Source of the DNA: an uncultured Pseudomonadales bacterium | GTDB lineage: Bacteria; Pseudomonadota; Gammaproteobacteria; Pseudomonadales; Azotimanducaceae | DNA: 64,000 bases | Direction of reading: 5' to 3' | Assembly (NCBI GenBank): GCA_964638775.1 | Contig: CAZWZH010000066.1 | Span: 334-64,333 of the forward strand | Shown here: positions 1 through 14,400 of the stretch, in pieces | Position numbering within the stretch: the first letter of the stretch is position 1 | Layout: each line of letters opens with the position of its first letter | Notes under the pieces: model-generated | Database searches by the model: none | Told to the model about the DNA's origin: nothing | What the model saw: the letters and a program-made list of their open reading frames with translations, nothing else | Made by a program: the position numbers and the translations under genes

Positions 1-611
1 ACGCTCCACGGGACCAAGACGCGCTATGTGGACAGACCTCGCCAAAGTGCCGGAAACTCCGCTCGTGGGCCTCGAACACCATCTCCTGGCCTTCGCGCGG
101 GAAAATCTGAACCAGGAAAACGCGACTGTGGCACAGCCGCATGTGCGCCGCCTTGACCCGCACGGTGGTGCCGGCGATCACCGCGTACTCGTGACTCCAG
201 TCGAACTGGTACGCCTCGCCGGGATCGAACGTCAGCGGCACAAAGGCCTGCCCGGCCGATCCGGGGTCGTCGCCGGCGCCAGGACCCCGCGTAACGACGT
301 ACCGCATCGTATCCGCCGTCTTAGCCCAGACCGGCCAGTTCCTCGTAGATCCGCGCCAGCGACAGGCGGTCGCGCCGACTCTTGCCCTCGTTCGCCTCCA
401 ATAGCTGCTCAAGTTCCCCGGTCCAGGCACCGAACTTCGGCAACGGCTGAATCGACCGTTCATAGCGAAACGACGTCTCATCCGAGCGCACCACCCTGCG
501 CACCGTGTTCCGCGACAGCTTCAATTCCCGGGCAATCTGCTTGATCGGTATGCCCCGACCCAGATGATCCCGACGAATCTGCGCAATGGTCTCCACAACC
601 AGCATCTCCAC
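1..611 (-). pseudogene. istA: IS21-family transposase IstA, disrupted by an in-frame TAA and a downstream frameshift
   Basis: The 96-aa ORF at 321-611 has the N-terminal HTH (IKQIARELKLSRNTVRRVV ... RLSLARIYEELAGLG). It stops at a TAA where IstA proteins carry G-Y-x-GGY. Read-through gives DGGYDAVRRY. A shifted frame then gives AFVPLTFDPGEAYQFDWSHEYAVIAGTTVRVKAAHMRLCHSRVFLVQIFPREGQEMVFEAHE, the typical IstA catalytic core. Confidence 0.8.
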
Positions 612-656
612 TCACCTCGCCCGTCCTTGCAACGAGGTAAGTTGATGGCCTCAGTT

Positions 657-717
657 CAGGGGGGTCAGTTTTGGACGCCGATTCCCCCGTCAGGGGGGTC
701 AATATTGCACGCCGATT
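657..717. repeat. Two 27-bp direct repeats (IS21-type terminal transposase-binding repeats)
   Basis: caggggggtcagttttggacgccgatt (657-683) and caggggggtcaatattgcacgccgatt (691-717) match at 22 of 27 positions. Confidence 0.7.
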
Positions 718-1007
718 AACACACATGTCGCAGGTGCGAGCGTTGTTCGGTTATAGGTCCGTCTCTCCGGGGACGCGGTATGACCAGCCCTTCTGGGGCC
801 AGCCCGCCAACCGCCACTTGCCAATACCGCGACCTTCCATCGTCCGAACGCTGCGCTGCGAACCCGGGAAGTTACCCGATTTGGCCACGCCGATGGCCAA
901 AATCGTGGCCTGTTGGAGAGAGCGGGTTGTAGCGGTGTTCTACCGATGTTGAAGTAAGGATTCGGCGAAAGTGGAGAGGTCGAGCCCACACTAGCTTCGT
1001 CCTTGCC

Positions 1008-2384
1008 TCAAAGACCTTGACCGGGACCGCCGAGCAGCCCGTTCGCGGCAGACGCGACGGCCGGCCTCCCCGCATGACTTATGCCGCGTGCCCCCGTCGC
1101 CGACAGCTCCGCCAATTTGCGGTCAGCGATGTGCGAGAGGGTCCCGACTTCGTTGACGACACAATCGCAACCGGAGGCTACGGCGATGGCGCGCGCTACT
1201 GTGACTGCTCCTGCTACAGCACTAACGTACGGCACGGCTACGCTGGCTCCGCCTAACTCCGCTGCCCCGCACGCGCCTATCTCCCGTTCGAGGCGCAGAT
1301 AGGCATCGGCACTAGGACGCTCCTGTCCTCCGGGAGGATCCTCGAGATCGGCGAAATGCTGGTCGATGCGGCGATTTTTGTCGAATACGGTGACGCGATA
1401 CCGGTCGAAGTCTGTCGCCGTGCGTCCCAAGCCCGCATCTACAATGCAGTCAAAACCGACCTTTGCCATGAGCTTGCGTCCACTGACCTTGTCCAGGCCC
1501 GAAAGCGCGAGCCGCGGATCGTCATCCTGAACCCGGTCTCGCGCCGTGAGCCAGCGATCGACTCGTCGAACACGAAACCCCTTTGCCGACGCCCAGTCTT
1601 CAGCCACCTTCGTCTTCAGCGTCCCGTAAGTCTCGGCCTTCACCAACACCGACGTACCCCAGTTCTCTTCGCTAACACTATCTCTGTCCTGAAGGACCAG
1701 GGAGACGTTGCGGGCATCAGCGAATGGCAGCGCGGAAAGCGCCCAGAGATAGGCCTGCCCCAAGTTCCCGAGCCCGACCAGCCAGAGCGCCCCGGGCAGA
1801 AACACCTCTCGGAACCGGGGCGCTTCCTCGCCCTCAGCGACGGGCCAGAGGTCGAGCTGACCCGTGAAATCAACGAGCCGGTTCCTCTCCGCCTCAAAGG
1901 CGACGCCCACCGCCATCGCGCCGGCAGCGATACCGGGCAACGGGTTGTCCCCTTCATCCGGGCGTACCTGGCCTAGTTTCGCTGTCCCCGCTCTCCAGCC
2001 CGTCCACCACGGCGAAACCGCCCAACCCGGCCTAGCGTCGTCTGTACCAATGACAATCCTGCGCGATGCAGCTCCCCGGAAAGACGAAGCGCCAACCCGA
2101 TGCGCCGCCCCGGCAAGGCTCTCGCAGCCCAAGGGCAGGTAAGTGTTCGCAGGGCCGTCCACGGCACCGGCCAGCCGTACGCCACCGACGAAGGTCCTGC
2201 TCGCGACCGACACTGCCGTAAGGGCCGCCGCATGGGCAGCAGGCGAGGAGGCTCCGCTGCCGACGACGACCTCGAGAGTCAGTTGCCTCAGCTTGGCCTG
2301 CGCTTCATCGAACGAGATCCCCTCGCTGTCTACGAGTAGCTTGGAGAGCCGGGCGATCTGTCGGTCTAGCGCCACGGCCACCAT
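1008..2384 (-). CDS. bilD: E1-like ThiF/UBA-family adenylyltransferase (BilD-like)
   Basis: 458 aa. Rossmann-type motif LWLVGLGNLGQAYLWAL sits in the C-terminal half, after a ~190-aa degenerate N-terminal half. There is a Cys-bearing insertion (LEREIGACGAAELGG). The start overlaps the JAB gene end by 19 nt. It is the last gene of a Ubl-E2-JAB-E1 operon. Confidence 0.8.
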   Translation of the reverse strand: MVAVALDRQIARLSKLLVDSEGISFDEAQAKLRQLTLEVVVGSGASSPAAHAAALTAVSVASRTFVGGVRLAGAVDGPANTYLPLGCESLAGAAHRVGASSFRGAASRRIVIGTDDARPGWAVSPWWTGWRAGTAKLGQVRPDEGDNPLPGIAAGAMAVGVAFEAERNRLVDFTGQLDLWPVAEGEEAPRFREVFLPGALWLVGLGNLGQAYLWALSALPFADARNVSLVLQDRDSVSEENWGTSVLVKAETYGTLKTKVAEDWASAKGFRVRRVDRWLTARDRVQDDDPRLALSGLDKVSGRKLMAKVGFDCIVDAGLGRTATDFDRYRVTVFDKNRRIDQHFADLEDPPGGQERPSADAYLRLEREIGACGAAELGGASVAVPYVSAVAGAVTVARAIAVASGCDCVVNEVGTLSHIADRKLAELSATGARGISHAGRPAVASAANGLLGGPGQGL

Positions 2385-2887
2385 CCGATGTGCAGCGGAG
2401 ATGGCTGCTCGAAGCTACGGTCCCGCCAACGGCGCGATCCCAGGTACTCGTACACGCCGATACCCTCGGGACCGGTTTCCCGCGTAGCGAATTTCGGGAG
2501 AATCATGGCCACGTGACCGACTTCTGCTATCACCGGATTGGCACGATCTGAAGGGCTTTGCCCGAACCCGGCGGGGTGGACGTGAATGTCTGCCACAACC
2601 GAGCGCCCGACCCTTCGGCAATAGGTCCAGAGATCACCCAGATGCCGGCCATCGATGAGGACCATCCCTGTCTTCAGTGCGTTCGGATCGATGTCGTCGT
2701 AGAACACGAACTCGTCGATCGCGCGGGCCCGGTTGTTGGAGCCCAGAAGGAAGGCCCCGCTTTCTCGCCGCCCGTCGGCGCGTCGCCTCAGTTCCGCGAC
2801 CCCCCGGCGCCACACTCTGCCACCGCACACGATCTCAGGCGGAGGACCGAGAAGCTTGCGCGCGAGCGTTGCTGTTAAGGATGCCAT
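2366..2887 (-). CDS. bilC: JAB/MPN (JAMM) metalloisopeptidase (BilC-like)
   Basis: 173 aa. It has an upstream Glu (RESGAFLLG) and a JAMM-like metal site (DIHVHPAGFGQSPSD). It overlaps both neighbouring genes. Confidence 0.8.
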   Translation of the reverse strand: MASLTATLARKLLGPPPEIVCGGRVWRRGVAELRRRADGRRESGAFLLGSNNRARAIDEFVFYDDIDPNALKTGMVLIDGRHLGDLWTYCRRVGRSVVADIHVHPAGFGQSPSDRANPVIAEVGHVAMILPKFATRETGPEGIGVYEYLGSRRWRDRSFEQPSPLHIGWWPWR

Positions 2888-3311
2888 GCAGGTCCTGAAA
2901 CACGAAAGTAAGGCGCCGCTTCGGATTCCACGCCAAGTGCGGGTAGGCGGCTGTGTTGTTGTTGTGGGGTCCAGTCTTGCGGTCCCACGGGCGGTAGACG
3001 GTGTCGTCGCCCCAGTTCTTGAACGTCTGCTTGACCCGTCTGCCTCCCTGAGGCCGACGGTCGACGGCTAGAGGGGCGTTGCGCTCGTGGTCCCAAATGC
3101 GGACCAAAGGCGCCTGCGCGGCGTAGTTCGAAAGGTCCGCCCGGAAGCCATACTCGCTGGCCGTGCCGTCCGGCTCTGTAGCGGAGACGGCAAAATCCAG
3201 GGTGGGGAACTCGAACGAGACGACTCGCCAGCGGCCCTGGTCGCAGCCTCGGACGAAGTCGCCTTCCTTCAAGTCGGCCTCGATGCGCGCGATGGCGGGA
3301 TCCGCGATCAT
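2835..3311 (-). CDS. bilB: E2/UBC-like protein (BilB-like), atypical cysteine content
   Basis: 158 aa. UBC-like segment EYGFRADLSNYAAQAPLVRIWD resembles the F-x-x-x-x-YP-x-x-P-P-x-v-x-F signature. It sits between the Ubl and JAB genes. The start ATG shares one nucleotide with the Ubl stop (TGATG). The only Cys is C23. Confidence 0.6.
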   Translation of the reverse strand: MIADPAIARIEADLKEGDFVRGCDQGRWRVVSFEFPTLDFAVSATEPDGTASEYGFRADLSNYAAQAPLVRIWDHERNAPLAVDRRPQGGRRVKQTFKNWGDDTVYRPWDRKTGPHNNNTAAYPHLAWNPKRRLTFVFQDLHGILNSNARAQASRSSA

Positions 3312-3601
3312 CAGGAGCCTCCGTTGGCGATGTCGCCCCGCACCAGATCGAGCGCGAGGTCATCGTCCTTACCCGCTAGGCGCCCGATGTGATCCCGCTC
3401 CGGTAGCTCGTCCTTCTCGCCATGTCGGACCAGAACAAGCTCGGTCGCCAAGCTCCCGTCGACCTTAAACACCTTGATCGCCCAGCTGAGCACGTCCTTA
3501 ACGGCTTCGAATCGTTTGAACTCGAGGCTCTCCTCGCCAGACTGGTAGTAGACGGTAACCTTTACCTCGACCGCTTCCTTCCCTTCGACAATCTCACTCA
3601 T
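3311..3601 (-). CDS. bilA: Ubiquitin-like beta-grasp protein with C-terminal ...NGG-S tail (BilA-like)
   Basis: 96 aa. The alternating strand/helix pattern fits one beta-grasp domain. The C terminus is DIANGGS: a Gly-Gly followed by one residue. It is the first gene of the operon. Confidence 0.7.
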   Translation of the reverse strand: MSEIVEGKEAVEVKVTVYYQSGEESLEFKRFEAVKDVLSWAIKVFKVDGSLATELVLVRHGEKDELPERDHIGRLAGKDDDLALDLVRGDIANGGS

Positions 3602-3733
3602 TCATTCGTCTCCATGCGCCCCAGCGATGTTCGCCGGCGTTGAAACCCTATGCGGAGACTGGACTGTGGCGCGGACATTGACCCATCATGTCCGAGCGGG
3701 CAGGAGGGGGCCGCATAAGAAGAGGCAGACAAG

Positions 3734-4270
3734 ATGCGGCCACGCCGGATGAGCCCAGATGAGATCGCCCAGGCGATCGAAACCCTATCGGATGCTAATT
3801 GGGTACGCCTGAAGAAGGCTGCTCAGCACTACGCCCGCCCCGCGGTCTCGGCTGACGACCTGCTGCAGGAGGCCTTCACCCGCGCCTTGGCGGGTAGTCG
3901 AACATGCCCGGAAGGCGTGGATGTCGTTAAGTTTCTGGCCGAAGCCATGCGCAGCATTGCTCACGGAGAACAGGAGAAGTTCCGTGAGTTGGAGGAACTC
4001 GATGGTGTCGATGGTGCTGCCCTGCCCGCGTCCACGCCCTTGGAGACCGAGATCGCCGACACGGAGCAGTACGAGGTGATCCTCGGGAAAATCCTGTGTC
4101 TCTTTGAGGACGACCCTACAGCGAAGGAGATCGTGGAGGGCATTACGGCGGGACTCACGGCGGAGGAGCTACGAGAACTGACCGGGCTCGACCAGACGGC
4201 GTACAACTCCAAGCGGAGGCTCATACGCCGACGCATCGACAAGAGATTCCCTGAAGGATTCACGCTATGA
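3734..4270 (+). CDS. Small sigma-70/ECF-like factor (region 2 + region 4 like)
   Basis: 178 aa. DDLLQEAFTRAL resembles region 2. LTAEELRELTGLDQTAYNSKRRLIRRRI resembles a region 4 HTH. It is transcribed divergently from the Ubl operon, with a 132-bp gap. Confidence 0.55.
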   Translation: MRPRRMSPDEIAQAIETLSDANWVRLKKAAQHYARPAVSADDLLQEAFTRALAGSRTCPEGVDVVKFLAEAMRSIAHGEQEKFRELEELDGVDGAALPASTPLETEIADTEQYEVILGKILCLFEDDPTAKEIVEGITAGLTAEELRELTGLDQTAYNSKRRLIRRRIDKRFPEGFTL

Positions 4271-4689
4271 CCGGAAAGAAAGAGAGCGCTCGAGAGGACC
4301 TCAACCGGTTGGCCGATGCCCTCGTCGAGGACATTCTGAGCACGCCGGACGACGAACTGTTGGCTGAATTCCGGGAAGAGGGGCAAGACCCACAGCGCAA
4401 TGCCGCCGCATTGCGCAGTCTCTTCCGGCAGAGCCTGTTGGCAGCCAGGAAACGGAGAATGTCGGATGCGAAAGCAGGCGTCGCGGCCGTTCGCCAAGCT
4501 GATCGGGCGGGCCTGGGCGGTGAGGTGACGGACATTGCAGCGGCGCGGGCGCGTCTCCAGTCTCTGATTAAGCGTCACCCCGGTCAGTTGACACTGGCAG
4601 CGCGCAATGAGGCCGAGCTGTCGGACGCGGATGTCCTCGGCATGCTCAAAGACCTAGCAGAGCTTGGCCTCATCGATCCCGAGGAGTAG
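4267..4689 (+). CDS. Hypothetical helical protein, translationally coupled to the sigma-like gene (possible anti-sigma or adaptor)
   Basis: 140 aa. Its ATG overlaps the upstream TGA (ATGA). No TM segment or recognisable motif. Acidic C terminus. Confidence 0.5.
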   Translation: MTGKKESAREDLNRLADALVEDILSTPDDELLAEFREEGQDPQRNAAALRSLFRQSLLAARKRRMSDAKAGVAAVRQADRAGLGGEVTDIAAARARLQSLIKRHPGQLTLAARNEAELSDADVLGMLKDLAELGLIDPEE

Positions 4690-4698
4690 GGCGGGGAA

Positions 4699-5457
4699 GT
4701 GAGGCTTCGGCCAGCCGAGTTGCTGCTGCAGGACTTGGGGGTCACCGAGCCGAAGGAGATCGATCTCGAAGCGATCGCGTTCTATGTTAATGCGCAAGTG
4801 CGCTACCGGATCCTGGACGGGTGTGAAGCACAGATAGTCGGATCGGCCGATAAAGCGATCATTACGGTCAACCAGAGCAGCCCCAGGCGCAGGAAGCGAT
4901 TCTCGATTGCCCACGAGCTAGGCCACTGGCACTACCACCGCGGGCGTCGCCTGACCTGTGTGGTTGAGGCGTACCGTCCCCGAACCGCGTCCCCCGAGCG
5001 GACTGCGGACGGCTACGCTGCTGACCTGCTCATGCCACGATACTTGTTCCAGCCGCTCATCCGCCAACAGAAACAGCTGGACTTTGCAGCAATCGGGTTC
5101 CTTGCGGCGGAGTTCGATGTGAGCCAGACCGCGACGGCCATTCGAGCTACCGAGAGTGACCACTCGCCAGTGATGCTGGTCTGTCACGGGGACGGTGGAC
5201 GCAAGTGGTTTGCACGGGCTCCGAGCGTACCTGAACGGTGGTTCCCCCAGAGTCAGCTGGACTCGGATAGTTTCGCCTACGATGTCCAGTTCGGCTCTGA
5301 GCCCGACGGCACGAGGCTCAGGAAGATTGACGCTGATGCTTGGTTTGACCGGCGGGACGCTGGTCGTTTCGAACTCCTTGAGCAGACCATCACCGTAGGT
5401 CCAGACGAAACACTGACGCTTCTCGTCTTCACGGACGAGGAGATGCTCGACGAGTAG
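4699..5457 (+). CDS. ImmA/IrrE-family (DUF955) zinc metallopeptidase with C-terminal extension
   Basis: 252 aa. HEXXH motif in FSIAHELGHWHYH, with downstream ADLLMP typical of the family. GTG start 10 nt after the previous gene. Confidence 0.75.
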   Translation: MRLRPAELLLQDLGVTEPKEIDLEAIAFYVNAQVRYRILDGCEAQIVGSADKAIITVNQSSPRRRKRFSIAHELGHWHYHRGRRLTCVVEAYRPRTASPERTADGYAADLLMPRYLFQPLIRQQKQLDFAAIGFLAAEFDVSQTATAIRATESDHSPVMLVCHGDGGRKWFARAPSVPERWFPQSQLDSDSFAYDVQFGSEPDGTRLRKIDADAWFDRRDAGRFELLEQTITVGPDETLTLLVFTDEEMLDE

Positions 5458-5958: not shown

Positions 5959-6582
5959 ATGGCAATAGCACGAAACACGATCGACCCGGCGTACTTCAAC
6001 CCAAAGCTGAAGTTCCCCTACCAGTTGAGAACGGACGACTTCCGTTCGGCAATGCAGGACGTCTATGACTTCTTCCACGACGTAAACGAGCATCTGGTTG
6101 CAAAAGGTCTTCAGCGACTCGATGACAGCCTGCGGCCGGCAATCATGTCAGGCGTTCTTTCGGACTTGCTTACGTCCAGCCTTGCCACGCACTCCAGGGT
6201 CCTCATAGAGAACAGGTACTTCAACGGACACCCAGACCTCTTGGTGCAGGGCGTATACCCGAACAACGCCGTCAAGGCGGGCGAACGAGGGGTGGAAGTC
6301 AAGACCACTCGAAAGAAGGGTGGGGCAGTCGATACACATGGCGCTCGAAACCAATGGATGTGCGTTTTCGTCTACGAGGTCGACACCACATCGGAGCCGG
6401 CCGTGGAAAGGCTGCCGATGACCTTCAGGGAGGTCTACCTTGGCGAGGTCACGCTCGATGATTTCAGAAGGAATCCCAGGGGAGAACTCGGCACCAGAAC
6501 GGCGACGCTGCATGCGGAAGGGATAAGCAAGCTTCGGGAGAATTGGGTGTACAAGATTCAATCGGACCCGTTGGGGGCATAA
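5959..6582 (+). CDS. Type II restriction endonuclease, PD-(D/E)XK fold
   Basis: 207 aa. The motif is NGHPDLLV ... GVEVKTT (PD...ExK). It is convergent with, and overlaps, the adjacent methyltransferase. Confidence 0.6.
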   Translation: MAIARNTIDPAYFNPKLKFPYQLRTDDFRSAMQDVYDFFHDVNEHLVAKGLQRLDDSLRPAIMSGVLSDLLTSSLATHSRVLIENRYFNGHPDLLVQGVYPNNAVKAGERGVEVKTTRKKGGAVDTHGARNQWMCVFVYEVDTTSEPAVERLPMTFREVYLGEVTLDDFRRNPRGELGTRTATLHAEGISKLRENWVYKIQSDPLGA

Positions 6583-7739
6583 GCGGTGAGTTTGGGGATC
6601 GCTTCTACAGCGGTCCGGAAATAGTCCCTGTCTATCTCGATGCCGATGCTGCTGTAACCCACCGCATTGCTGGCCGCCAATGTCGACCCCGCGCCGGCAA
6701 AGGTGTCGAGCACGACTCCTTCTCCGAGCGGCAGCACCCCGCGAACCAGTGTACGAAGGAACACCTGGGGCTTGAGGCTGGGATGCGGCGCCAGTGCTTT
6801 CTCGGCCCGCCGGGTAGGGGCCGATGCAATGACGTCGCCGAAGGGCTTTTTGGCTTCCGGGCGACGGAATCCGCCCGTTTTCCATTTCCGCAAGTTGTCC
6901 TGAACCCTGCCGTCGAGGGGTTTTCTGAAAACCAGCCAAGGCTCCCACATCGAGCGAGGCATCACGCTGACATCGGAGAATTCAGCGTGGGCACCCTTGG
7001 GACGGTCGCCTCCTCGCATCGTCATTGTCAGCCGTATGATCTCGCCGCGCCGCTGCAGACCTGCCCGGGATAGTGCGACCGCAACAATGTGGGAAACCAG
7101 CGGATTCGAAGCGACTATGACGTTCGCGCCGGGAACCAGTACGCGATGCGCGGTTTTTCCCCATGCGACGAAGAAATCCCCGATCTCACCGAGTTGACTC
7201 TCGTCCAGGGTCGTAAAACGGGGCAGGGGCGACCTCCGGTGGCCGTCAAACGACGGGGGAATGCGCCAGACCCCACCCTTGCCGGCCCGCAGCTTGGTCT
7301 GTTGTTCAGCCGTGTATTCATGCAGACCGTATGGCGGATCAGTGACGATCGCGTGCACCGAATTCGGGCTGGCTGCGTCCAGCCAGGAGAGGCAATCGTC
7401 GTGGTGGAGCGTGGAGTTCTGGAATGAAAACGGCTTTTCGGATGCCTCCACCGGTGCAAGAAATCGTTGTCGCAGGCTCGGCTTCGGCGACCTGGCCCGA
7501 TACACGCCTCTGCTTTCGCGGACGAATCGTGCCGGAGTATTGAGCCGAAGATACGACCTGATCGACGAAGTCGGCGTTTCGCCGATCTCTTTGCGAACAC
7601 CTGCTTCGATTTCGAGAACGCTGAGGGGCGCGGCAGATTCCTCAAGCACCTTGACTATGGCATCCCGGACGAGGCCTGGGGCCCGTTTCTTGGCGGACTT
7701 CATTCGTAGAGAGTATGACGTCTGGACGTCTGAAGTCAA
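6558..7739 (-). CDS. Beta-class DNA methyltransferase (N6A/N4C) with an N-terminal winged-helix (HARE-HTH-like) domain
   Basis: 393 aa. Motif IV is IVTDPPYG. Motif I near the C terminus is VLDTFAGAGSTL; IV before I indicates the beta class. N-terminal segment RDAIVKVLEESAAPLSVLEIEAGVRKEIGETPTSSIRSYL...GVYRA looks like a HARE-HTH. Confidence 0.8.
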   Translation of the reverse strand: MTSDVQTSYSLRMKSAKKRAPGLVRDAIVKVLEESAAPLSVLEIEAGVRKEIGETPTSSIRSYLRLNTPARFVRESRGVYRARSPKPSLRQRFLAPVEASEKPFSFQNSTLHHDDCLSWLDAASPNSVHAIVTDPPYGLHEYTAEQQTKLRAGKGGVWRIPPSFDGHRRSPLPRFTTLDESQLGEIGDFFVAWGKTAHRVLVPGANVIVASNPLVSHIVAVALSRAGLQRRGEIIRLTMTMRGGDRPKGAHAEFSDVSVMPRSMWEPWLVFRKPLDGRVQDNLRKWKTGGFRRPEAKKPFGDVIASAPTRRAEKALAPHPSLKPQVFLRTLVRGVLPLGEGVVLDTFAGAGSTLAASNAVGYSSIGIEIDRDYFRTAVEAIPKLTAYAPNGSD

Positions 7740-8105: not shown

Positions 8106-8421
8106 CTGGCGCATGGAGGGTGCGGATGACGACACAAGACGATCTGAAGAAGCCGCGACCTGGCCGGTGCGCGGGGCTTGCCTAGTGCGGGGCAGCGTTG
8201 GTCCTGGCGGTGTCCGGCGCTCCCGCAGCCCGGAGGGCCTGGCTGATCGCGGTAAAGGGCGCTGGGGTGGGGTGCACGCCGAGGCTGGTGCCGACACCGG
8301 CTAAAGCGTTGGGATGGGTCGTGCATCTCTTGGCCACCGCGACAGGCGGCACGCGCGCGGTTTCGGCACGGACGCGAACACCGGGGGTGCAACCTGGCGT
8401 CTGTGGGGGGCCGTGTCGGCG

Positions 8422-11400
8422 ATGAAGATCCCGAGGCGGGTACCCCGGGAACCCGCGAGGAGGACCGCCAGGCGGGCGGGGTCAGCGTATCGACGCTGCG
8501 CGGAGGGCGCGTTGAAGGCTGCTGAGCCGGCGGTTGGCGTCGTACCGGAGGTGGCAAACGACTCCCTTGTGCGAGCAGCGCGTTACGGCACCGCGGTCGC
8601 GCTGACCATCGCCTTGCTCGCCGCCGTCACCGCGTCGCCGGTTCCGCCGCGTGCGTTTGCGAGTGAAGCCGACGTCTCCATGCAAGACCCCCCTCGCGGC
8701 GTTGCGGTATCGATCGAGTCCAGCCCCTCGGATAACCGCAGTTCCTACCGGATCGGAGAGACGATTTCGGTGGCGGTGGAGTCCGACCAGCACGGTCACC
8801 GGGTCGACGGCGAGAGGCCGAAACCGTCTGCCGGAGCCATCGCCGCGGCGGGCAGCGAGGTCTCGATCGTCTTCGACGAGGTTCTGGACGAAGACTCCGT
8901 ACCGCCCGCCGACGCGTTCTCGGTGACCGTCGACGACGCGGCGTATCCGGTGACAGCCGTCTCCGTGGCCGGCGACTCGGTCTCGCTGACACTGAGCCGG
9001 GATGTTCCGGCGGCCGGGCCGGATCTCGTGGTGACTTACGTGGATCCGGTGGACGCGTCCGCTGTCCGGATCCGCGACACGGCCGGCAACGCGGCGGCGA
9101 GTTTCGTGTCGGACCGGGGTCGGGAAGGCACTCAGGATGCGGACCCGGCCCCTCGGACAGGGCGCGAGATGCCCGCGGCCGACAGGCCGAGCATCGGCGA
9201 GATCCTTGCGCAGAAGGCGTTGCGAACGCCGGCGGAACGCAAGGTGAGTTCCCGGCTTCTGCAGGCCCGGCGGGATCGAGGCGCGGACGGACCGGAAAGA
9301 GCGGACGGGGCCGACAGCCGGCCCGCTGACGACGAACGCATCCTGGTGGACATCCGGGCGGACGTGACATCCGAAGTGCTCGAGCGCATCGAAGCGCTGG
9401 GCGGTGAAGTGGAGGATCGCCACCGGCGCTACCGGTCCATCCGGGCGCGACTGACGCCGGAGGCGGCGCTGCAGCTCGCGGAACTGGACGCGGTGCAGAC
9501 CATCCATCCCGCCGACCGGGCGAGGACGCATCAAAACGATGAGGATGAGGAAGAGGATGAGGAAGAGCCCCCGATGCGCAACACATCGGAGGGCGATGCC
9601 GCGCACGCCGCGGCCGCCGCGCGCGCCACCTACGCGGTCGACGGCACTGGAATCGGCATCGGCGTGATTTCGAACGGCGTTGGGTCGCTCGCGCAACTGC
9701 AGGCGTCGGGCGATCTTCCGAACCACGTCCACGTGCTGCCGGGGCAGCAGGGGGAAGCGACCGGAGAAGGGTACGAAGGCGCGGCATTGCTCGAAATCGT
9801 CCACGATCTGGCACCGGGCGCCGACCTCTACTTCGCCACCGGCTTGGGGGGCAAGGCGCGGTTGGCGGCGAACATCGATGCGCTTTGCCGTGCAGGCGCC
9901 GACGTCATCGTCGACGATGTCGTATACATCGAGGAGGCGGCGTTTCAGGACGACGTGATCGCGCAGGCCGTCACTGCGGCGGTGGCCGACGGCTGCTTCC
10001 ATTTTTCCGGGGCCGGCAACTGGGGCAATCTCACGCACACCACACGCGGGGGACGCTCCGGGGTCTGGGAAGGCGACTTCGTTGCCGGGACGGCCTTCAC
10101 CGTGGCTGGCGTAAACGTAGGGACCCGGCACGCGTTCGCAACCGACATGGAAGAGAACGCGTTGACGACCGTGCTGCCAACTTGGCGTGGGTCGATAACC
10201 CTTCAGTGGGCCGACCCCTGGTTCGCGTCGGACAACGACTATGACCTGTTCCTGGTCGATTCTGAGGGCGCGGTCGTTGCGAGTTCGACGAATGTGCAGA
10301 GCGGGTCCCAGCGTCCGTTGGAGGTCATCGAGACGGAAATCGTGGACACCGCAGATATCCGCGTGGTCGTGGTCAAGGCCTCGGGCAGTGCGGACCGCTA
10401 TCTGCGGCTGGTCGCGCACAACCTCGCGTATTTGGACATCACCACGGCCGGCTCCACCTACGGCCACGCCGCCTCCGCGAATGCCTTCGGCATCGGTGCC
10501 GTCAATGCACGCGCGGCCAGGGGGACGGACGGCGCTTTCGACGGCACGGAGTCGGTCCAGTGGTGGAGCGCGGACGGGCCGCGGCGGATGTTCTTCCATC
10601 CGGACGGCGCCGCGGTCACGCCGGGGGACTTCAGTTCGACCGGGGGCGTACTGCTCGCCAAGCCGGACCTCGTCGCGGCTGACTGCGTGACGACGGCGAC
10701 ACCGGGGTTCTCGTACTTCTGCGGCACCTCGGCATCGGCGCCGCACGCCGCGGCGATCGCCGCGCTGGTCCTGGAGGGGGCCGGCGGCCCGGGCAAGGTC
10801 ACCCGGGCCGAGCTTCGTGAGGCAATGGCCACCACGGCCCTCGACATCGGGGCCACCGGCCCCGACCGGGACTCCGGGGCGGGCATCGTCATGGCGCCGG
10901 CCGCGGTCGGCGCGCTCTACGTGCCGGCGGACGTTCGCAACGCGCCGCCGACGGTCGCGAACGCCGTCGGGCATCGGTCGCTGGCGCCGGACTCCCCGCC
11001 GTTCGAGATCGACCTGGCCAGCGTGTTCTCGGATCCGGCCGGGGACGCCCTGACCTACTCCGCCCGGTCGAACCGCCCGGACGGACTGGCCGTGAGCTTG
11101 ACCGGCTCAACCTTGACGCTGACGCCGGGATCGGCGCTGGGTCCGGTGGTCGTGGACCTGCGCGCGACCGACCCCGACCGGCTTGACGCCCGACACAGGT
11201 TCATCGTGACGATCTCCAACAGCGCCGAGCACGTGGTCCGCTCGGACTGGAGCCTGCTGCCGGACGGCGTACCCGTGGGCGGGAGCTTCCGACTGCTGTT
11301 CATGAGTTCGACCAGGCGCGACGGCACGTCGGCCGACCTCTCGGACTACGACAGCCACGTCCAGAGCGCGGCCGCCGGCGGCCTTGCGGACATCCAGGGG

Positions 11401-14400
11401 TACAGCAGCGAATTCGCCGCGGTGGTCTGCACGAACAACCAGCAGGACGTCTTCGAGAACACCGGGACGTCTGCGGACGACACCGACGCGCCGATCTACT
11501 GGCTGAGCACGGAGGGCGACGGGGAAGCCGTGGCGAGCGGCTACGCCGATTTCTACGACGGCTATTGGAACCCTAACGAGTACCGCCCCCGGAACCAGGT
11601 GGGATACCGGGGAAGAATCTCAAGTAGCGACCCCGTTATCACCGGCTGCGAAAACGACGGCACGGTGCGTCACGACGGGCTGGGTTCGGGCAACATTTCC
11701 GTGAGAGGCTGGTACGTCAGCAGCGATGGCACGGTGACTGACATCCGATTGGGACCCATGGCGTCGCAGAGCCTAAGGGTGCTCGCGCTGTCCCCGATCT
11801 TTGTGTACTCAGGAGCGGACGACGCCGCGCTGTCGACGCTGTCGCTCGAGGGCACCGAGGGCGCCTTGTTGGACGAGGAGTTCGATCCCGAGACGTTCTT
11901 CTACCGGGTCACCGTCGATTTCGCGGAGAGTCTCACGTTGGACTTCAAGGCGCGCGGCGCGGCTGCGGGGGCGACCGTGTCGGTCCAGGACGCGAACGGT
12001 CGGGTGTTGGACGATGCTGACCCGAATGCGTTGGGTTTCCAGGTCAATCTGGGCCCGCAGCGGAACGTCTTCCAAGTCATGGTGACCGCGGCGGACGGGA
12101 CCACGCTCACCTACCGGGTAGAGGTGTCACGAAACTATCCGACGCTGCTGACGAACCAGGCTATGCCACGCAGTACCCGACTCCACGACGGGTCGGCCAT
12201 TGCGCAGGTGTTCAAGACGGGCAACCACGGGGGCGGCTACCTGCTGGACGCGGTCATCGTGGAACTGGTGGACCCCCCAAGCGCGCCGGAGCCCGGCACC
12301 GCCTATGTCGGGCTATGGTCGGTTGACGAAACCGACCTCTTTGAAGACGCAAACACCAACCAGCTTGTGGTACTCCCTTGGAGCCGCCCGGGGGTCCTGC
12401 TCGAGTCGCTCGCGTCACCGGACGTTTTCGTGGACGGCCCCAACCGCTTCAGCGCGCCACTCGGGACGGTCCTGGAACCTGACACCTACTACTACGTGAT
12501 CGTCAACGAGGGGGTGGACGATGGAGTGTCCGTTGCGCTTTCTGCTGACTACCTAGTGCCTCCCTACGAGTCCGACTACGGTTGGGACGCAAACAACCAC
12601 TCCTACGGACCGACCTTCCGGGCAGACGACATTGGGGACAGGCAGGCCATTCCCAACAGTGTGATTATGCGCATCGAGGGCGGACTGTTGGCCGTCTCGT
12701 GCCCCATCGACCTGGGGGAGCGAACCGCCATCTGGTGGGCAGAGTTGAGTCCGGCAGAGCTAACCGGCCGTTCCTATGACACGTATGGATTCGACCGTGC
12801 GAACGCGGAGGGCGATCTGTCCATCGACTCTTTCGATTTCGGGGGGGCCACGTATGAAGTTACGGACCTGCGCGTCGCGCCGTTGACCGACCCGGCTCTC
12901 ACCGTCTTCGGCATCGAGCCGCGGTTACCGTCGGAGGACGTGCCGGCACTGGCGCTGCACCTATGCGACCGAGTGTTGCCCCTGAGTGCTGGTTCTCTGA
13001 CCAATGTGGTGACTTGGGCCGGCCCCGTTGACGACTGGTCGGACGGCGAGGCGGTCACGGTCGCGCTGTCGGCGGCCAAGGATGCGCTCCTGAGCGGCCT
13101 CTCAGTGCGGGGGGCCACGTTGACTCACGCGACTACCGGGCTCGCAGGGGAGAACAACGAGGGCTTCGAGGCGACCAAGTTCGACTACACCGCGGTGGTG
13201 CCCTCCATTCCGGTGACGGTGACGGCGACGGCGAACGAGCCGGGCGCGCTCATCGCCTACTTCGACAGCGATGGCGCCGCGATCGCGGACGTGGACACCG
13301 AGGAGCTGGGCCATCAGATGGACTTGGACGTCGGTCCAAACGTCGTTTGGATCGTGGTGACTGCGGGTGACCGCAGGCACAGCACGTCCTACAGCGTGAC
13401 GATCGTGTACGAGACGGGGGTGCTGTTGACGAACGAAGGCAACCGTTCCATTTCGTTAGCTACTGAGAATCCGCTTGTTTTCACGCAACCGTTCACGACC
13501 GGATCCCACGCGCACGGCTACCGGGTCGACACGGTCTGGATGGACACCCGAGACTTCTATTTTACGGATTGGGACCCTTCGCAGACGATTATGCGCCTCA
13601 CCGAGGAAAGGTCCGGAGGATTGCCGGACCTGACGTGCGAGGTGATGGCATTGAGAACGCCTCAGGAGCCCGTCCATGGGCCCGACGCGTTCGGTGCGTC
13701 CCGCAACAACAGGCTCAAGCCGGACACGCGCTACCATCTGGTGCTCAATTGGGGGATCAGAGATTCGAATTATCGGGTGAATCCACAACAAGTGCGCGGT
13801 CGGAGCTCCGAGTCCGGGTTTGGCTGGACAATGGATCAGTATCTGTCGTACGTCTCATGGAGACCCGGCAATGACCCTTGGGAGCCATACGATAGTCCTA
13901 GGGCCTTGGAAGTACGGATTGTAGGGTGCGAGTTGCATCCGGCAACGCAGCAGACACTGGTTTCGAACACGGGGCAGGCGCTTGATGACTCGACTTTGAC
14001 TGTGAGCGACACCTTGTCGATGGCGCTCGGTTTCACCACCGGCGACCGCACGACCGGTTTCACGCTCTCGTCGGTGCAGGTCCACTTCCACTCGTGGTTC
14101 GGCACCGGCGACAGGGCGAGGGTCAGCATCTACACGTCAACGTCCTCTGGGGCGCCGAATCAAAGCCTCTACGTCCTGACGAACCCGTCTTCGATCGTGG
14201 ACGGCGCGCTCAATACGTTCACGGCGCCCGAGAACGCGACGCTGGACCCGGACACCGAGTATTTCGTGGTGGTGGAGGCGGTGGAGGGGGTGTTCCGCAT
14301 CGGCCGAGCAAGCTCAAGTGTCGAGGACGTTTGCGAGGCGAGCGGCTGGTCTATCAGAGATCGAAACTATGGCTTCGATGACGCCAATGGAAGCTGGGGA

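What the first reader, a model, noticed from the sequence alone, without database searches (positions are those of the whole stretch)
1008..3601. Complete Ubl-E2-JAB-E1 (Bil-type) ubiquitin-like conjugation operon in a defence island
Four tightly overlapping minus-strand genes encode these products in order:
- a 96-aa beta-grasp protein ending in GG-S
- a UBC-like protein
- a JAMM/JAB isopeptidase (HVHPAGFGQSPSD)
- a two-lobed ThiF/E1 protein (GLGNLG Rossmann motif plus a Cys-bearing insertion)

This is the gene order reported for BilABCD antiphage systems, which conjugate a Ubl to phage structural proteins. It sits between an IS21 remnant, an ImmA-protease cassette and an R-M pair, a typical defence-island context. 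Only a handful of such operons have been studied, and this one has sequence peculiarities described in separate findings.
Basis: partly seen in the sequence, partly recalled or inferred. Interest (0 to 1): 0.8.

Follow-up and report, generated by a model that had tools for sequence, protein, structure and literature searches.

The report
Bil defence operon with cysteine-less E2
The four-gene bacterial anti-phage operon that tags proteins with a ubiquitin-like protein is really there, but its E2-like protein lacks the cysteine that the studied examples need, so it probably works by a modified route.

Summary
Four overlapping minus-strand genes (3601 to 1008) match the PADLOC models BilA, BilB, BilC and BilD (E 8e-23, 1e-47, 6e-61, 1e-119). 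The BilB model folds as an E2, and its best structural match is Ensifer BilB. The BilD profile's best solved relative is Ensifer BilD. It is therefore a Type-I-like Bil operon, not a ThiF/MoeB sulfur system.

Three features depart from the studied systems:
- **BilB has no catalytic cysteine.** The column that holds Cys in the Cys-type relatives is Trp109 here. It is Trp in all 143 clade members examined, and 25 of them contain no Cys at all. Only 27 of 102 family representatives have Cys there. The neighbouring His116 and the E1 cysteine (BilD C372) are conserved.
- **BilA has one beta-grasp domain, not two.** The conserved glycine is G94 (…DIANG).
- **The regulator is unusual.** The divergent cassette is an ECF-sigma-like protein, a 140-aa protein and CapP, not CapH plus CapP.

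All four genes are under purifying selection. The most likely mechanism is Ubl conjugation without an E2 thioester. This is a new variant of a known kind.

The parts
3311..3601 (-). bilA: single-domain ubiquitin-like protein, 96 aa. The conserved reactive Gly is G94 (codon 3322-3320), followed by a 2-residue tail, GS.
   Evidence: PADLOC BilA 8.4e-23, residues 11-94 against profile positions 78-162 of 162. A stored Pfam hit BilA_UBL_2 is on record for the identical protein. Relatives end ...RGDIANG plus 2-3 variable residues. An in-frame TGA lies directly upstream of the ATG.
2835..3311 (-). bilB: E2-fold protein, 158 aa, without a catalytic Cys. The clade-invariant loop is T104-x-Y106-R-P-W109-D-R-x-T113-G-P-H116. 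The W109 codon is 2987-2985.
   Evidence: PADLOC BilB 9.8e-48. Pfam DUF7665 (named BilB-like in newer Pfam) 6e-26. AF2 pLDDT 79.9; Foldseek top hits 8tz0_C and 8tyz_C, then UbcH7, Ubc12 and UEV domains. W109, T113 and H116 are invariant in 143 sequences.
2366..2887 (-). bilC: JAMM/JAB metallopeptidase, 173 aa. Active-site residues are E42 and H102-x-H104-x6-S111-x2-D114 (motif DNA 2546-2584). It overlaps bilB by 53 nt.
   Evidence: PADLOC BilC 5.8e-61. PDB sequence hit 8tyx_B, DUB(BilC), 5.3e-4, with D114 aligned to the Asp of the Ensifer HSHPGRAYHSTTD motif (taken to be the D106 mutated in bioRxiv 10.1101/2023.09.26.559546). E42, H102, H104, S111 and D114 are invariant in 23 clade sequences. 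The same 53-nt overlap occurs in relatives.
1008..2384 (-). bilD: E1, 458 aa. It has an N-terminal inactive-adenylation-like domain, a Rossmann domain with GLGNLG (residues 204-209, DNA 1758-1775), and the catalytic-Cys loop G-A-C372-G (codon 1271-1269).
   Evidence: PADLOC BilD 1.4e-119, residues 7-426 against profile positions 6-437 of 453. Stored Pfam hit BilD_N. The BilD profile's top PDB hit is 8tyz_A, E1(BilD), 8.6e-6 over positions 25-277, followed by ThiF, UBA3 and UBA1. C372, G204, G206, G209, Q210, D233, K257 and R277 are invariant in 23 sequences that fall to 28% identity.
3602..3733 (.). Shared divergent promoter region. It carries an imperfect palindrome, GCGCGGACAT-N9-ATGTCCGAGC (3669-3697), which is a candidate operator.
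   Evidence: Inverted repeat I1. The region and the palindrome are conserved in L041, which has the same gene arrangement. No sigma-70 consensus promoter was found.
3734..4270 (+). ECF-sigma-like protein, 178 aa, first gene of the divergent regulator cassette.
   Evidence: TIGR02937 sigma70-ECF 1.4e-4, below the curated cutoff but aligned end to end (residues 14-168 against positions 2-161 of 165). Pfam Sigma70_r2 6.4e-4. The family has 490 clusters, several named ECF sigma by JGI.
4267..4689 (+). 140-aa protein with no family match. It always lies between the sigma-like gene and capP, and is a candidate anti-sigma factor or CapP substrate.
   Evidence: No Pfam, NCBIfam or PADLOC hit. A gene of 140-149 aa sits at the same position in L041, L042, L043 and L044.
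4699..5457 (+). capP-like M78 (ImmA/IrrE) metallopeptidase, 252 aa, with an HELGH motif.
   Evidence: PADLOC capP 8.2e-65, residues 5-244 against positions 8-241 of 242. Pfam Peptidase_M78 2.1e-15.

Best explanation
This is a Type-I-like BilABCD operon, a bacterial ISG15-like anti-phage ubiquitin-like conjugation system. It belongs to a widespread and strongly conserved clade whose E2-fold protein has lost the catalytic cysteine.

Proposed route:
1. **Induction (inferred).** The divergent cassette (ECF-sigma-like, 140-aa protein, CapP protease) switches the operon on. By analogy with CapH/CapP, CapP would be activated by DNA damage or phage-derived single-stranded DNA and would cleave its partner.
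2. **Maturation (inferred from homology).** BilC, an intact JAMM peptidase, removes the two-residue tail GS and exposes Gly94 of the single-domain BilA.
3. **Activation (inferred from conserved residues).** BilD adenylates Gly94 and takes BilA onto Cys372 as a thioester.
4. **Transfer (the new part, inferred).** BilB cannot carry a thioester because the catalytic column is Trp109. It most likely docks on BilD like an E2 and acts as a non-covalent adaptor or catalyst. It would use its invariant His116/Asp110/Arg111 loop to present a target lysine, so that BilA passes directly from the E1 thioester to the target. The target is presumably a phage structural protein, as in Collimonas.
5. **Reversal.** BilC can also remove conjugates.

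Shown here: gene content, family membership, folds, conserved residues, absence of the cysteine, purifying selection. Not shown: any activity, target or phenotype.
For: **Family membership.** All four PADLOC Bil models match. The AF2 model of BilB is an E2 fold and its best PDB matches are Ensifer BilB chains. The BilD profile's best PDB match is Ensifer BilD.

**Absence of the E2 cysteine.**
- W109 is invariant in 143 clade sequences. The only frequent Cys (C23) is present in 95 of 143, and 25 of 143 have no Cys at all.
- Among 102 family representatives at 50% identity: 27 have Cys at this column, 5 have Cys only at column 104, 14 have a Cys at some other, non-conserved position within residues 90-132, 39 have Cys only outside that stretch, and 17 have none.
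- Cys and hydrophobic states are mixed within single sequence clusters.
- Cys-type relatives read LYxPCDR...H. One of them has that Cys at residue 113 of 161, the number mutated in Collimonas (C113A) (bioRxiv 10.1101/2023.09.04.556158).

**Rest of the active machinery is kept.**
- H116 is present in 99 of 106 family sequences, D110 (or E) in 98 and R111 in 97.
- BilD C372 is invariant in 22 clade loci and 14 plasmid loci, including 7 whose BilB lacks Cys.
- The BilC JAMM residues are invariant.

**Functional constraint.** dN/dS is 0.05-0.2 for all four genes. The clade occurs in Binatia, Terriglobia, Opitutia and Alpha-, Beta- and Deltaproteobacteria.

**Tail trimming.** Relatives carry variable 2-3-residue tails after ...ANG. 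Ensifer BilC trims a one-residue tail (bioRxiv 10.1101/2023.09.26.559546).

**Regulator.** capP matches at 8.2e-65. The cassette is divergent from bilA, the position reported for CapH/CapP at Type II Bil operons. The same arrangement and a conserved intergenic palindrome occur in L041.
Against: - No experiment exists for any member of this clade.
- The equivalence of W109 with Collimonas C113 and Ensifer C138 rests on motif alignment. I never obtained the Collimonas sequence. The profile alignment to Ensifer BilB is weak (probability 20%) and places C138 two residues away.
- The active-site loop of the AF2 model has low confidence (pLDDT 46-57 for residues 100-125), so no geometry can be argued.
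- Invariant hydroxyl residues (T113; T/S104; Y106) next to invariant H116 leave room for a covalent oxyester relay instead.
- In this sub-lineage bilA has lost its first domain through a 5' rearrangement, and its closest relative, L041, has an IS inside bilB. This particular copy could therefore be on the way to decay.
- The published statement is that the Cys is 'highly conserved' in Type I and Type II BilB. The authors may define Type I more narrowly than PADLOC or Pfam do.
Confidence: 0.55

Rival explanations
1. The operon is the same, but BilB is a covalent carrier that uses a non-cysteine nucleophile. Candidates are Thr113, Thr104 or Tyr106, activated by His116. BilA would pass from the BilD C372 thioester to a BilB oxyester and then to the target lysine. 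This would be a hybrid of the Bil and Bub chemistries.
For: - Bub E2 proteins were predicted to be 'inactive' for lack of Cys (Iyer et al. 2006, PMC1779556). They were later shown to act through a Ser-x-His oxyester (bioRxiv 10.1101/2024.11.21.623953).
- In 143 clade members T113 and Y106 are 100% conserved, position 104 is always Thr or Ser, and H116 is 100% conserved.
- Column 104 holds Cys in 12 of the 106 aligned family sequences, and in 5 of the 102 filtered representatives it is the only Cys of the two catalytic-loop columns. This part of the loop can therefore carry a nucleophile.
Against: - Across the wider Cys-less family no hydroxyl residue is conserved. Column 113 is Ala in 62 of 106 and column 104 is Ala in 46 of 106.
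- Several Cys-less BilB proteins (L030, L034, L035) have Ala at both columns 104/113 equivalents.
- Y106 is universal in Cys-type members too, which suggests a structural role.
- Unlike Bub, the E1 keeps its cysteine.
Confidence: 0.2
2. This particular copy is a decaying or inactive remnant of a Bil operon. The 5' part of bilA and the native regulator were lost in a rearrangement next to IS elements, and the genes are no longer a working defence system.
For: - DNA homology to clade relatives starts only at window 3568, which is codon 12 of bilA. The first beta-grasp domain, the promoter and the usual HTH + M78 + exonuclease regulator are missing.
- An IS21 remnant lies 400 nt downstream of bilD.
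- The closest relative with the same layout (L041) has a DDE transposase inside bilB.
- L039, another single-domain copy, has a transposase fragment upstream.
Against: - All four ORFs are intact, and bilA, bilB and bilC have Shine-Dalgarno-like sequences.
- The single-domain BilA with the same new N-terminus (MSxxxEGKExVE) is kept in three genomes at 78-94% identity.
- The new upstream cassette is itself a recurrent, intact regulator module.
- Single-domain Ubls are the norm in functional Type II Bil.
- dN/dS is about 0.1, although this mostly reflects history before the rearrangement.
Confidence: 0.12
3. A canonical Bil cascade as implied by the first reader: E1 thioester, then E2 thioester, then the target lysine.
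For: Gene order and all four family matches. E2 fold.
Against: BilB has a single cysteine, C23, in the N-terminal helical region. It is replaced by R, L, V or Q in 48 of 143 clade members, and 25 members have no Cys at all. A thioester on BilB is therefore not possible as a conserved mechanism.
Confidence: 0.03
4. A ThiF/MoeB-type sulfur-carrier system with a ThiS/MoaD-like partner.
For: A sub-threshold Pfam ThiF hit (0.0011). ThiF is the second-best PDB sequence match of the BilD profile.
Against: - The best matches are BilD (PADLOC 1.4e-119; PDB 8tyz_A).
- BilD has an extra N-terminal inactive adenylation-like domain.
- The operon includes E2-fold and JAB genes.
- No thiamine, molybdopterin or rhodanese genes lie nearby.
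- The Ubl ends in ANG plus a tail, not a free GG.
Confidence: 0.01

Closest known systems
Type I BilABCD (Collimonas sp. OK412; Millman 2022; Hor et al., bioRxiv 10.1101/2023.09.04.556158)
   Same: - Gene order bilA-bilB-bilC-bilD.
- All four PADLOC models match, three of them over nearly their full length.
- E1 of about 450 aa with a conserved Cys in a short loop (Collimonas C385; C372 here).
- JAMM peptidase.
- Ubl with a conserved C-terminal Gly.
- No E3.
   Different: - BilB has Trp where the Cys-type has the Cys whose C113A mutation abolishes defence.
- BilA has one beta-grasp domain instead of two, plus a 2-residue tail after the Gly. Collimonas BilA ends at G163; 12 homologues with 2-9-aa overhangs were noted.
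- The window BilB scores 160 bits on the PADLOC BilB model, against 189-212 bits for Cys-type relatives.
- The regulator cassette is different.
Type II BilABCD / CEHH-6C operons (Ensifer aridi TW10; Chambers et al., bioRxiv 10.1101/2023.09.26.559546; PDB 8tyx, 8tyz, 8tz0)
   Same: - Single-domain Ubl with a tail after the reactive Gly that BilC trims.
- E2 fold (the top Foldseek match of the window's BilB model).
- E1 with inactive and active adenylation domains (the top PDB sequence match of the BilD profile).
- A divergent CapP-containing regulator.
   Different: - Sequence similarity is marginal: BilC 5e-4, BilD profile 8.6e-6, BilB detectable by fold only.
- No CEHH motif, and no Cys138 equivalent.
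- The Cys-bearing insertion of the E1 is much shorter than the roughly 80-aa CYS domain.
- The four Zn-binding cysteines of Ensifer BilD are not conserved here.
Bub (bacterial ubiquitination-like, formerly 6E/DUF6527) operons (Ye et al., bioRxiv 10.1101/2024.11.21.623953)
   Same: The E2-fold protein has no catalytic Cys but has a conserved His next to the active position. This is the precedent that a 'Cys-less E2' can still be catalytic.
   Different: - Bub E1 also lacks Cys (it uses a Tyr), whereas BilD here keeps an invariant Cys.
- Bub proteins are fused (Ubl-E2, JAB-E1 or E2-E1).
- Bub operons carry the DUF6527 serine protease BubE. None of these features is present here.
CapH + CapP DNA-damage-responsive regulators of immune operons (Lau et al. 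2022; summarised in PMC13373217)
   Same: A CapP-family M78 peptidase (PADLOC capP 8.2e-65) encoded divergently from the defence operon and sharing its promoter region.
   Different: There is no XRE-type HTH CapH. Instead, an ECF-sigma-like protein and a 140-aa protein of unknown family precede capP. Control may therefore be positive (release of a sigma factor) rather than de-repression.
E1-only Ubl conjugation (archaeal SAMP/UbaA; Thermus TtuB/TtuC) and non-catalytic E2 variants (UEV: Mms2, TSG101/Vps23). From my own knowledge, not tested here.
   Same: Conjugation of a Ubl from an E1 without an E2 thioester is chemically and biologically precedented. UEV domains are E2 folds without Cys that act as binding or positioning modules. 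UEV structures appear among the Foldseek hits.
   Different: Those systems either have no E2-fold protein at all or pair the UEV with an active E2. Here the Cys-less E2 fold is the only one in the operon.

Membership tests
Bil (BilABCD), Type I | Four-gene operon in the order Ubl - E2 - JAB peptidase - E1 | tested here: met
   ORFs 3601-3311, 3311-2835, 2887-2366 and 2384-1008, all on the minus strand and overlapping. The same order occurs in the 36 related loci examined (some incomplete, IS-disrupted or cut by a contig end).
Bil (BilABCD), Type I | Each protein matches the family's profile (PADLOC BilA-D) | tested here: met
   8.4e-23, 9.8e-48, 5.8e-61 and 1.4e-119. BilA matches only the second half of its profile.
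Bil (BilABCD), Type I | E2 (BilB) with a catalytic cysteine (Collimonas C113, Ensifer C138; mutation abolishes defence or conjugation) | tested here: not met
   The column is Trp109, which is invariant in 143 clade sequences. No conserved Cys exists anywhere in the protein. The column assignment is by motif (LYxPCDR...H in Cys-type relatives, with Cys at residue 113 in L032).
Bil (BilABCD), Type I | Conserved His close to the E2 active site (Ensifer H151) | tested here: met
   H116 is present in 143 of 143 clade members and 99 of 106 family representatives.
Bil (BilABCD), Type I | ISG15-like Ubl with two beta-grasp domains | tested here: not met
   BilA is 96 aa, with a stop directly upstream of the start codon. 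It matches profile positions 78-162 only. Most clade relatives have about 165-185 aa and two domains.
Bil (BilABCD), Type I | Ubl with a conserved C-terminal glycine as the conjugation site | tested here: met
   G94 in ...RGDIANG is conserved in every relative examined. It is followed by variable tails of 2-3 residues.
Bil (BilABCD), Type I | JAMM peptidase with an intact E...HxH...S..D site | tested here: met
   E42, H102, H104, S111 and D114 are invariant in 23 sequences. D114 aligns with the Asp of the Ensifer BilC JAMM motif, taken to be D106.
Bil (BilABCD), Type I | E1 with an inactive and an active adenylation domain and a catalytic cysteine | tested here: met
   The BilD profile aligns with Ensifer BilD across the inactive domain and the Rossmann region. 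The GLGNLGQ loop and C372 are invariant down to 28% identity.
Bil (BilABCD), Type I | [quoted passage not shown] | not testable with these tools
   Needs expression, plaque assays and mass spectrometry.
Bil Type II (CEHH/6C) | E2 with a C-E-H-H motif; E1 with a Zn site made of four cysteines | tested here: not met
   No Cys or Glu at the equivalent positions of BilB. The only invariant Cys in BilD is C372. The sequence matches to the Ensifer proteins are marginal.
Bub (6E/DUF6527) | Fused Ubl-E2 / JAB-E1 or E2-E1 proteins; E1 without Cys; a DUF6527 serine protease | tested here: not met
   The genes are separate, the E1 Cys is invariant, and no fifth gene lies in the operon. No PADLOC or Pfam hit to such families.
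ThiF/MoeB sulfur-carrier systems | Single-domain E1-like adenylyltransferase with a ThiS/MoaD partner and cofactor-biosynthesis neighbours | tested here: not met
   The ThiF hit is below threshold (18.6 bits against a cutoff of 28.1). BilD has an extra N-terminal domain. E2-fold and JAB genes are present, and no biosynthesis genes lie nearby.
CapH/CapP regulator pair | CapP M78 peptidase plus an XRE-type HTH repressor CapH, divergent from the regulated operon | tested here: inconclusive
   CapP is met (8.2e-65) and the divergent position is met. CapH is not met. The two upstream genes are an ECF-sigma-like protein (below threshold) and a protein with no family match.

The most novel reading that the evidence does not exclude
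A large part of the BilB-like family cannot form an E2 thioester, and this operon's clade is entirely so. At least 56 of 102 representatives at 50% identity have no Cys in the catalytic loop region (residues 90-132). These Bil systems would therefore conjugate their Ubl by a route not yet described for Bil. One option is direct transfer from the E1 thioester to the target lysine, with the Cys-less E2 fold acting as a non-covalent, E3-like catalyst or target selector. The other is a Thr/Tyr oxyester on BilB. If so, the E2 cysteine has been lost or gained repeatedly within one defence family, and the E2 thioester step is not obligatory in this bacterial ubiquitination-like family.
Probability: 0.55. 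Interest if true: 0.75.

Novelty: new variant of a known kind. Interest (0 to 1): 0.55.

Why it matters
Bil systems are the clearest bacterial counterpart of eukaryotic ubiquitination. Both mechanistic studies treat the E1-Cys to E2-Cys relay as the core of the system and describe the E2 cysteine as highly conserved.

A natural, widespread clade under purifying selection keeps the E1 cysteine, the peptidase and the E2 fold with its neighbouring His, but replaces the E2 cysteine with Trp. That makes a direct question testable: what does an E2 fold contribute besides carrying the thioester? Target choice, lysine activation and E1 discharge are the candidates.

It also bears on how E2, UEV and E3-like functions diverged. 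It gives a compact five-protein system for reconstitution.

On the practical side, defence-system finders will label such operons 'Bil' although a defining catalytic residue is absent. The sigma-like/140-aa/CapP cassette may be an unrecognised, portable, positive regulator of defence operons.

Tried and rejected
- **PDB sequence searches with the single proteins** found only a weak BilC match and nothing for BilA, BilB or BilD. A BilD profile was needed.
- **Profile alignment of the BilB family to Ensifer BilB.** With the shallow clade alignment it covered only the N-terminal half (probability 7%). With 106 diverse sequences it spanned the whole length at only 20% probability and placed C138 two residues from column 109. 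Residue equivalence therefore rests on the Cys-type relatives, not on this alignment.
- **The Collimonas BilB sequence was never obtained.** Cluster look-ups of Cys-type representatives returned Micromonospora and unnamed metagenome proteins. A search with a Variovorax Cys-type BilB returned no Collimonas entry among the 120 listed.
- **AF2 of BilA without an alignment** was useless (pLDDT 47.6).
- **A compensating cysteine elsewhere was looked for and rejected.** BilC C90 is family-wide whatever the BilB type. BilC C21 occurs in both Cys-type and Cys-less operons. No BilD feature separated operons with Cys-type BilB from those with Cys-less BilB.
- **The consensus promoter and terminator scan** gave nothing above chance.
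- **NCBIfam** has no model for any of the four proteins.
- **Literature searches** for DUF7665, BilB and a Cys-less E2 in Bil found no paper describing the loss. The library lacks most subscription-journal text, so this does not prove that the loss is unreported.

Full report

Yes. The minus strand between 3601 and 1008 carries four ORFs exactly as described:
- a 96-aa protein (3311-3601) ending ...DIANGGS
- a 158-aa protein (2835-3311)
- a 173-aa protein (2366-2887) with HVHPAGFGQSPSD at residues 102-114
- a 458-aa protein (1008-2384) with GLGNLG at residues 204-209 and a Cys at 372 in a G-A-C-G loop

The genes overlap by 1, 53 and 19 nt. The first gene has an in-frame TGA immediately upstream of its ATG and a GGAG 8 nt upstream, so it cannot be longer.

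The match to known families is far beyond chance. The PADLOC models give BilA 8.4e-23, BilB 9.8e-48, BilC 5.8e-61 and BilD 1.4e-119, the last three over almost the whole profile. The local Pfam copy recognises only DUF7665 for the second protein (6e-26) and gives sub-threshold Prok-JAB and ThiF hits. Newer Pfam names stored with the identical proteins are BilA_UBL_2, BilB-like and BilD_N. NCBIfam has no model.

**2. Folds and solved relatives**

An AlphaFold2 model of the second protein has mean pLDDT 79.9. Its topology is two helices, four strands, a long loop and two helices. Its best matches among solved structures are the E2 (BilB) chains of the Ensifer aridi E1-E2-Ubl complexes 8tz0 and 8tyz (probability 1.0, TM about 0.5). 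These are followed by UbcH7, Ubc12, UbcH8 and UEV domains.

A profile of 23 BilD sequences finds Ensifer BilD (8tyz_A, 8.6e-6) as its best solved relative. The alignment runs from the N-terminal inactive adenylation domain into the Rossmann region. ThiF, UBA3 and UBA1 come next.

The JAB protein aligns with Ensifer BilC (8tyx_B, 5.3e-4). Its D114 falls on the Asp of the Ensifer JAMM motif, taken to be the catalytic D106.

**3. Relatives**

The second protein has 277 clusters of close relatives (65-87% identity). Twenty-two species genomes carry the same operon. They include Binatia, Terriglobia, Opitutia and Alpha-, Beta- and Deltaproteobacteria MAGs, as well as Paraburkholderia, Mesorhizobium, Rhizobium and sphingomonads. 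These loci have the same gene order and the same 53- and 19-nt overlaps.

Fourteen plasmid loci hold more distant versions (27-38% identity for BilB, plus one clade member).

All four genes show dN/dS of about 0.05-0.2 against clade relatives. dS is near saturation, so these are rough values.

**4. The main departure: no E2 cysteine**

*The window clade.* The window's BilB has one cysteine, C23, in the N-terminal helices. In 143 clade sequences (window, 22 loci, 120 clusters):
- C23 is present in only 95.
- 25 proteins have no Cys at all.
- Y106, R107, P108, W109, R111, T113, H116 and W128 are invariant, and position 104 is always Thr or Ser.

*The wider family.* A full HMMER scan of 1.84 billion cluster representatives found 243 relatives. 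In 102 full-length representatives the motif is (A/T)(L/V)Y-x-P-X-D-R-x-(A/S/T/G)...H-x-x-W. Column X is Cys in 27. Five more have Cys only at column 104, 14 have a Cys at some other, non-conserved position within residues 90-132, 39 have Cys only outside that stretch, and 17 have none. Otherwise column X is W, F, Y, V, L, I or M. Cys and non-Cys states are mixed within single sequence clusters, which points to repeated switches.

*Assignment of the column.* Cys-type relatives read LYxPCDR...H. In one of them (Rhizobium phaseoli, 161 aa, the best PADLOC BilB score at 212 bits) that Cys is residue 113. This is the number of the Collimonas residue whose C113A mutation abolishes defence (bioRxiv 10.1101/2023.09.04.556158). 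I could not obtain the Collimonas sequence, so the equivalence is an inference. The profile alignment to Ensifer BilB is weak and places C138 two residues away.

*Published view.* The published statement is that this Cys and the adjacent His are 'highly conserved' in Type I and Type II BilB (bioRxiv 10.1101/2023.09.26.559546). Here the His (H116) is indeed kept, in 99 of 106 sequences, but the Cys is not.

*The rest of the machinery.* In every operon examined, including seven plasmid operons with Cys-less BilB, the E1 cysteine (C372 column) and the nucleotide loop are invariant. No compensating cysteine appears in BilC.

**5. Second departure: the Ubl**

PADLOC aligns the 96-aa protein only to the second half of the two-domain BilA profile. 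Most clade relatives have two-domain BilA of about 165-185 aa.

DNA similarity between the window and five clade relatives begins at 3568, which is codon 12 of bilA and the start of the second domain. It ends near 1062-1162. The first domain, the promoter and the regulator were therefore replaced by a rearrangement at the domain boundary.

The same single-domain form, with the same new N-terminus, occurs in two other assemblies (L041 at 94% identity; L039). It is therefore a small lineage, not an assembly artefact.

All relatives end ...RGDIANG followed by two or three variable residues. The L041 copy has SSR where the window has GS. BilC would have to trim the tail, as shown for the one-residue tail of Ensifer BilA.

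**6. Third departure: the regulator**

The 'ImmA' gene (4699-5457) is a full-length CapP (8.2e-65). It is placed divergently from bilA, the position reported for CapH/CapP at Type II Bil operons. The XRE-type CapH is missing, however. Its place is taken by an ECF-sigma-like protein (3734-4270; below threshold but aligned end to end to TIGR02937) and a 140-aa protein with no family (4267-4689).

The sigma-like family has 490 clusters. The three-gene cassette recurs next to different cargo:
- the same Bil layout in L041
- two small ORFs in a Brevundimonas MAG (L042)
- a different small-ORF + ThiF operon in L043/L044

Other clade members instead carry HTH + M78 + RNase_T exonuclease.

The 132-nt intergenic region, including an imperfect palindrome at 3669-3697, is conserved in L041.

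**7. How it most likely works**

*Shown:* gene content, family membership, folds, conserved catalytic residues of BilC and BilD, absence of a BilB cysteine, and purifying selection.

*Inferred:*
1. The cassette induces the operon. CapP, activated by single-stranded DNA as in CapH/CapP, would cleave its partner and perhaps free the sigma-like protein.
2. BilC removes GS.
3. BilD adenylates G94 and forms a C372 thioester.
4. BilB, unable to carry a thioester, binds BilD like an E2. It would use its invariant His/Asp/Arg loop to bring a target lysine to the E1~Ubl thioester.
5. The target is a phage structural protein, by analogy with Collimonas.

I give this about 0.55.

The main rival (0.2) is an oxyester on T113, T104 or Y106. 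It is supported by the Bub precedent, in which E2 proteins once called inactive (PMC1779556) proved to act through Ser/His. It is weakened by the lack of any hydroxyl residue conserved across the other Cys-less clades.

Decay of this particular copy is possible (0.12), given the rearrangement and the nearby IS elements. The intact ORFs, the ribosome-binding sites and the conservation of the layout argue against it.

**8. Comparison and novelty**

The operon works like, and is detected as, Type I Bil. It fails two features of the studied Type I system: the E2 cysteine and the two-domain Ubl. In Ubl architecture and tail trimming it resembles Type II. It shares 'E2 without Cys' with Bub, but unlike Bub it keeps the E1 cysteine.

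I found no paper that describes Cys-less BilB. The library lacks most subscription-journal text.

I rate it a new variant of a known kind. As a plain 'Bil operon in a defence island' it would be ordinary. The Cys-less E2, which is clade-wide and apparently common in the family, is what a specialist would want to test.

**9. Context**

The 'island' is small. It consists of:
- the IS21 remnant (321-611)
- the Bil operon and its regulator
- a Type II methyltransferase (6558-7739, 2.6e-106)
- a convergent 207-aa ORF that is only weakly REase-like

From 8.3 kb onward the ORFs examined are a 3669-aa ORF with protease-, repeat- and LRR-like sequence (read by eye) and housekeeping genes.

Noticed in passing
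window 3734-5457; also L041 7001-8724, L042 7001-8795, L043 7001-8765, L044 6077-7841: A three-gene cassette recurs divergently from different cargo operons: an ECF-sigma-like protein of about 180-190 aa, a protein of 140-149 aa with no family, and a CapP-type M78 peptidase of 252-261 aa. The cargo is a Bil operon, two small ORFs, or a small-ORF + ThiF operon. It looks like a portable regulator module that replaces CapH with a sigma and possible anti-sigma pair. I found no description of it.
   Followed up: partly
L023-L027, L029, L030, L032, L033 (positions about 1-3400 of each locus): A UvrD-like helicase of about 1110 aa lies directly upstream of bilA in the same orientation in 9 of 14 plasmid-borne Type-I-like Bil operons, often preceded by a small ORF. 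It is absent from the window and from the 22 loci of the window's clade. It may be a fifth component or a linked system in that branch.
   Followed up: partly
window 2835-2887; same relative position in L001-L022, L023, L027, L030, L033: The last 17 codons of bilB and the first 17 codons of bilC are read from the same 53 nt in two frames. This long overlap (44-53 nt) is kept across distant Bil operons, while others overlap by only 4-20 nt. Both reading frames are supported by the profile alignments. The meaning (translational coupling?) was not explored.
   Followed up: partly
L041 4849-6273: In the closest relative with the same layout, a DDE transposase is inserted inside bilB, splitting it into residues 1-75 and 69-145. 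L039 has a transposase fragment between its regulator and its single-domain bilA. IS activity around this sub-lineage is high.
   Followed up: partly
L020 4561-4998, L021 4666-4998: In two sphingomonad genomes the single-domain BilA proteins carry N-terminal Gly-Asn dipeptide repeats ((GN)n). This resembles the N/G-rich tails reported for some Type II Bil and Bub Ubls.
   Followed up: no
L043 4232-6833, L044 3308-5909: An operon of four small ORFs (92, 50, 80 and 127 aa) plus a 482-aa ThiF-family protein lies next to the same sigma/CapP cassette. It is followed by DUF7002 and an adenylosuccinate-synthetase-like gene. It may be another Ubl/E1-type defence system. An adenylosuccinate synthetase gene also lies near the Bil operon in L025.
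   Followed up: no
window 5959-7739: A Type II DNA methyltransferase (6558-7739, minus strand) overlaps convergently by 25 nt with a 207-aa ORF (5959-6582, plus strand). That ORF has only a marginal REase_II hit and no Pfam family. It is a candidate new restriction endonuclease partner.
   Followed up: partly
window 8314-19323: A single 3669-aa ORF. By eye its translation contains a subtilase-like protease segment, three near-identical repeats of about 200 aa and C-terminal leucine-rich repeats (my reading; no family search was run). It starts about 575 nt after the methyltransferase gene. It is unrelated to the finding.
   Followed up: no
window 611-1008: About 400 nt lie between the bilD stop codon and the IS21 transposase fragment (321-611), with no convincing ORF. 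The identical proteins appear on a 5-kb Logan contig (L037), and the identical sigma-like protein is on record from a 65,435-nt contig. The operon probably sits near a contig end, with an assembly break at the IS.
   Followed up: no
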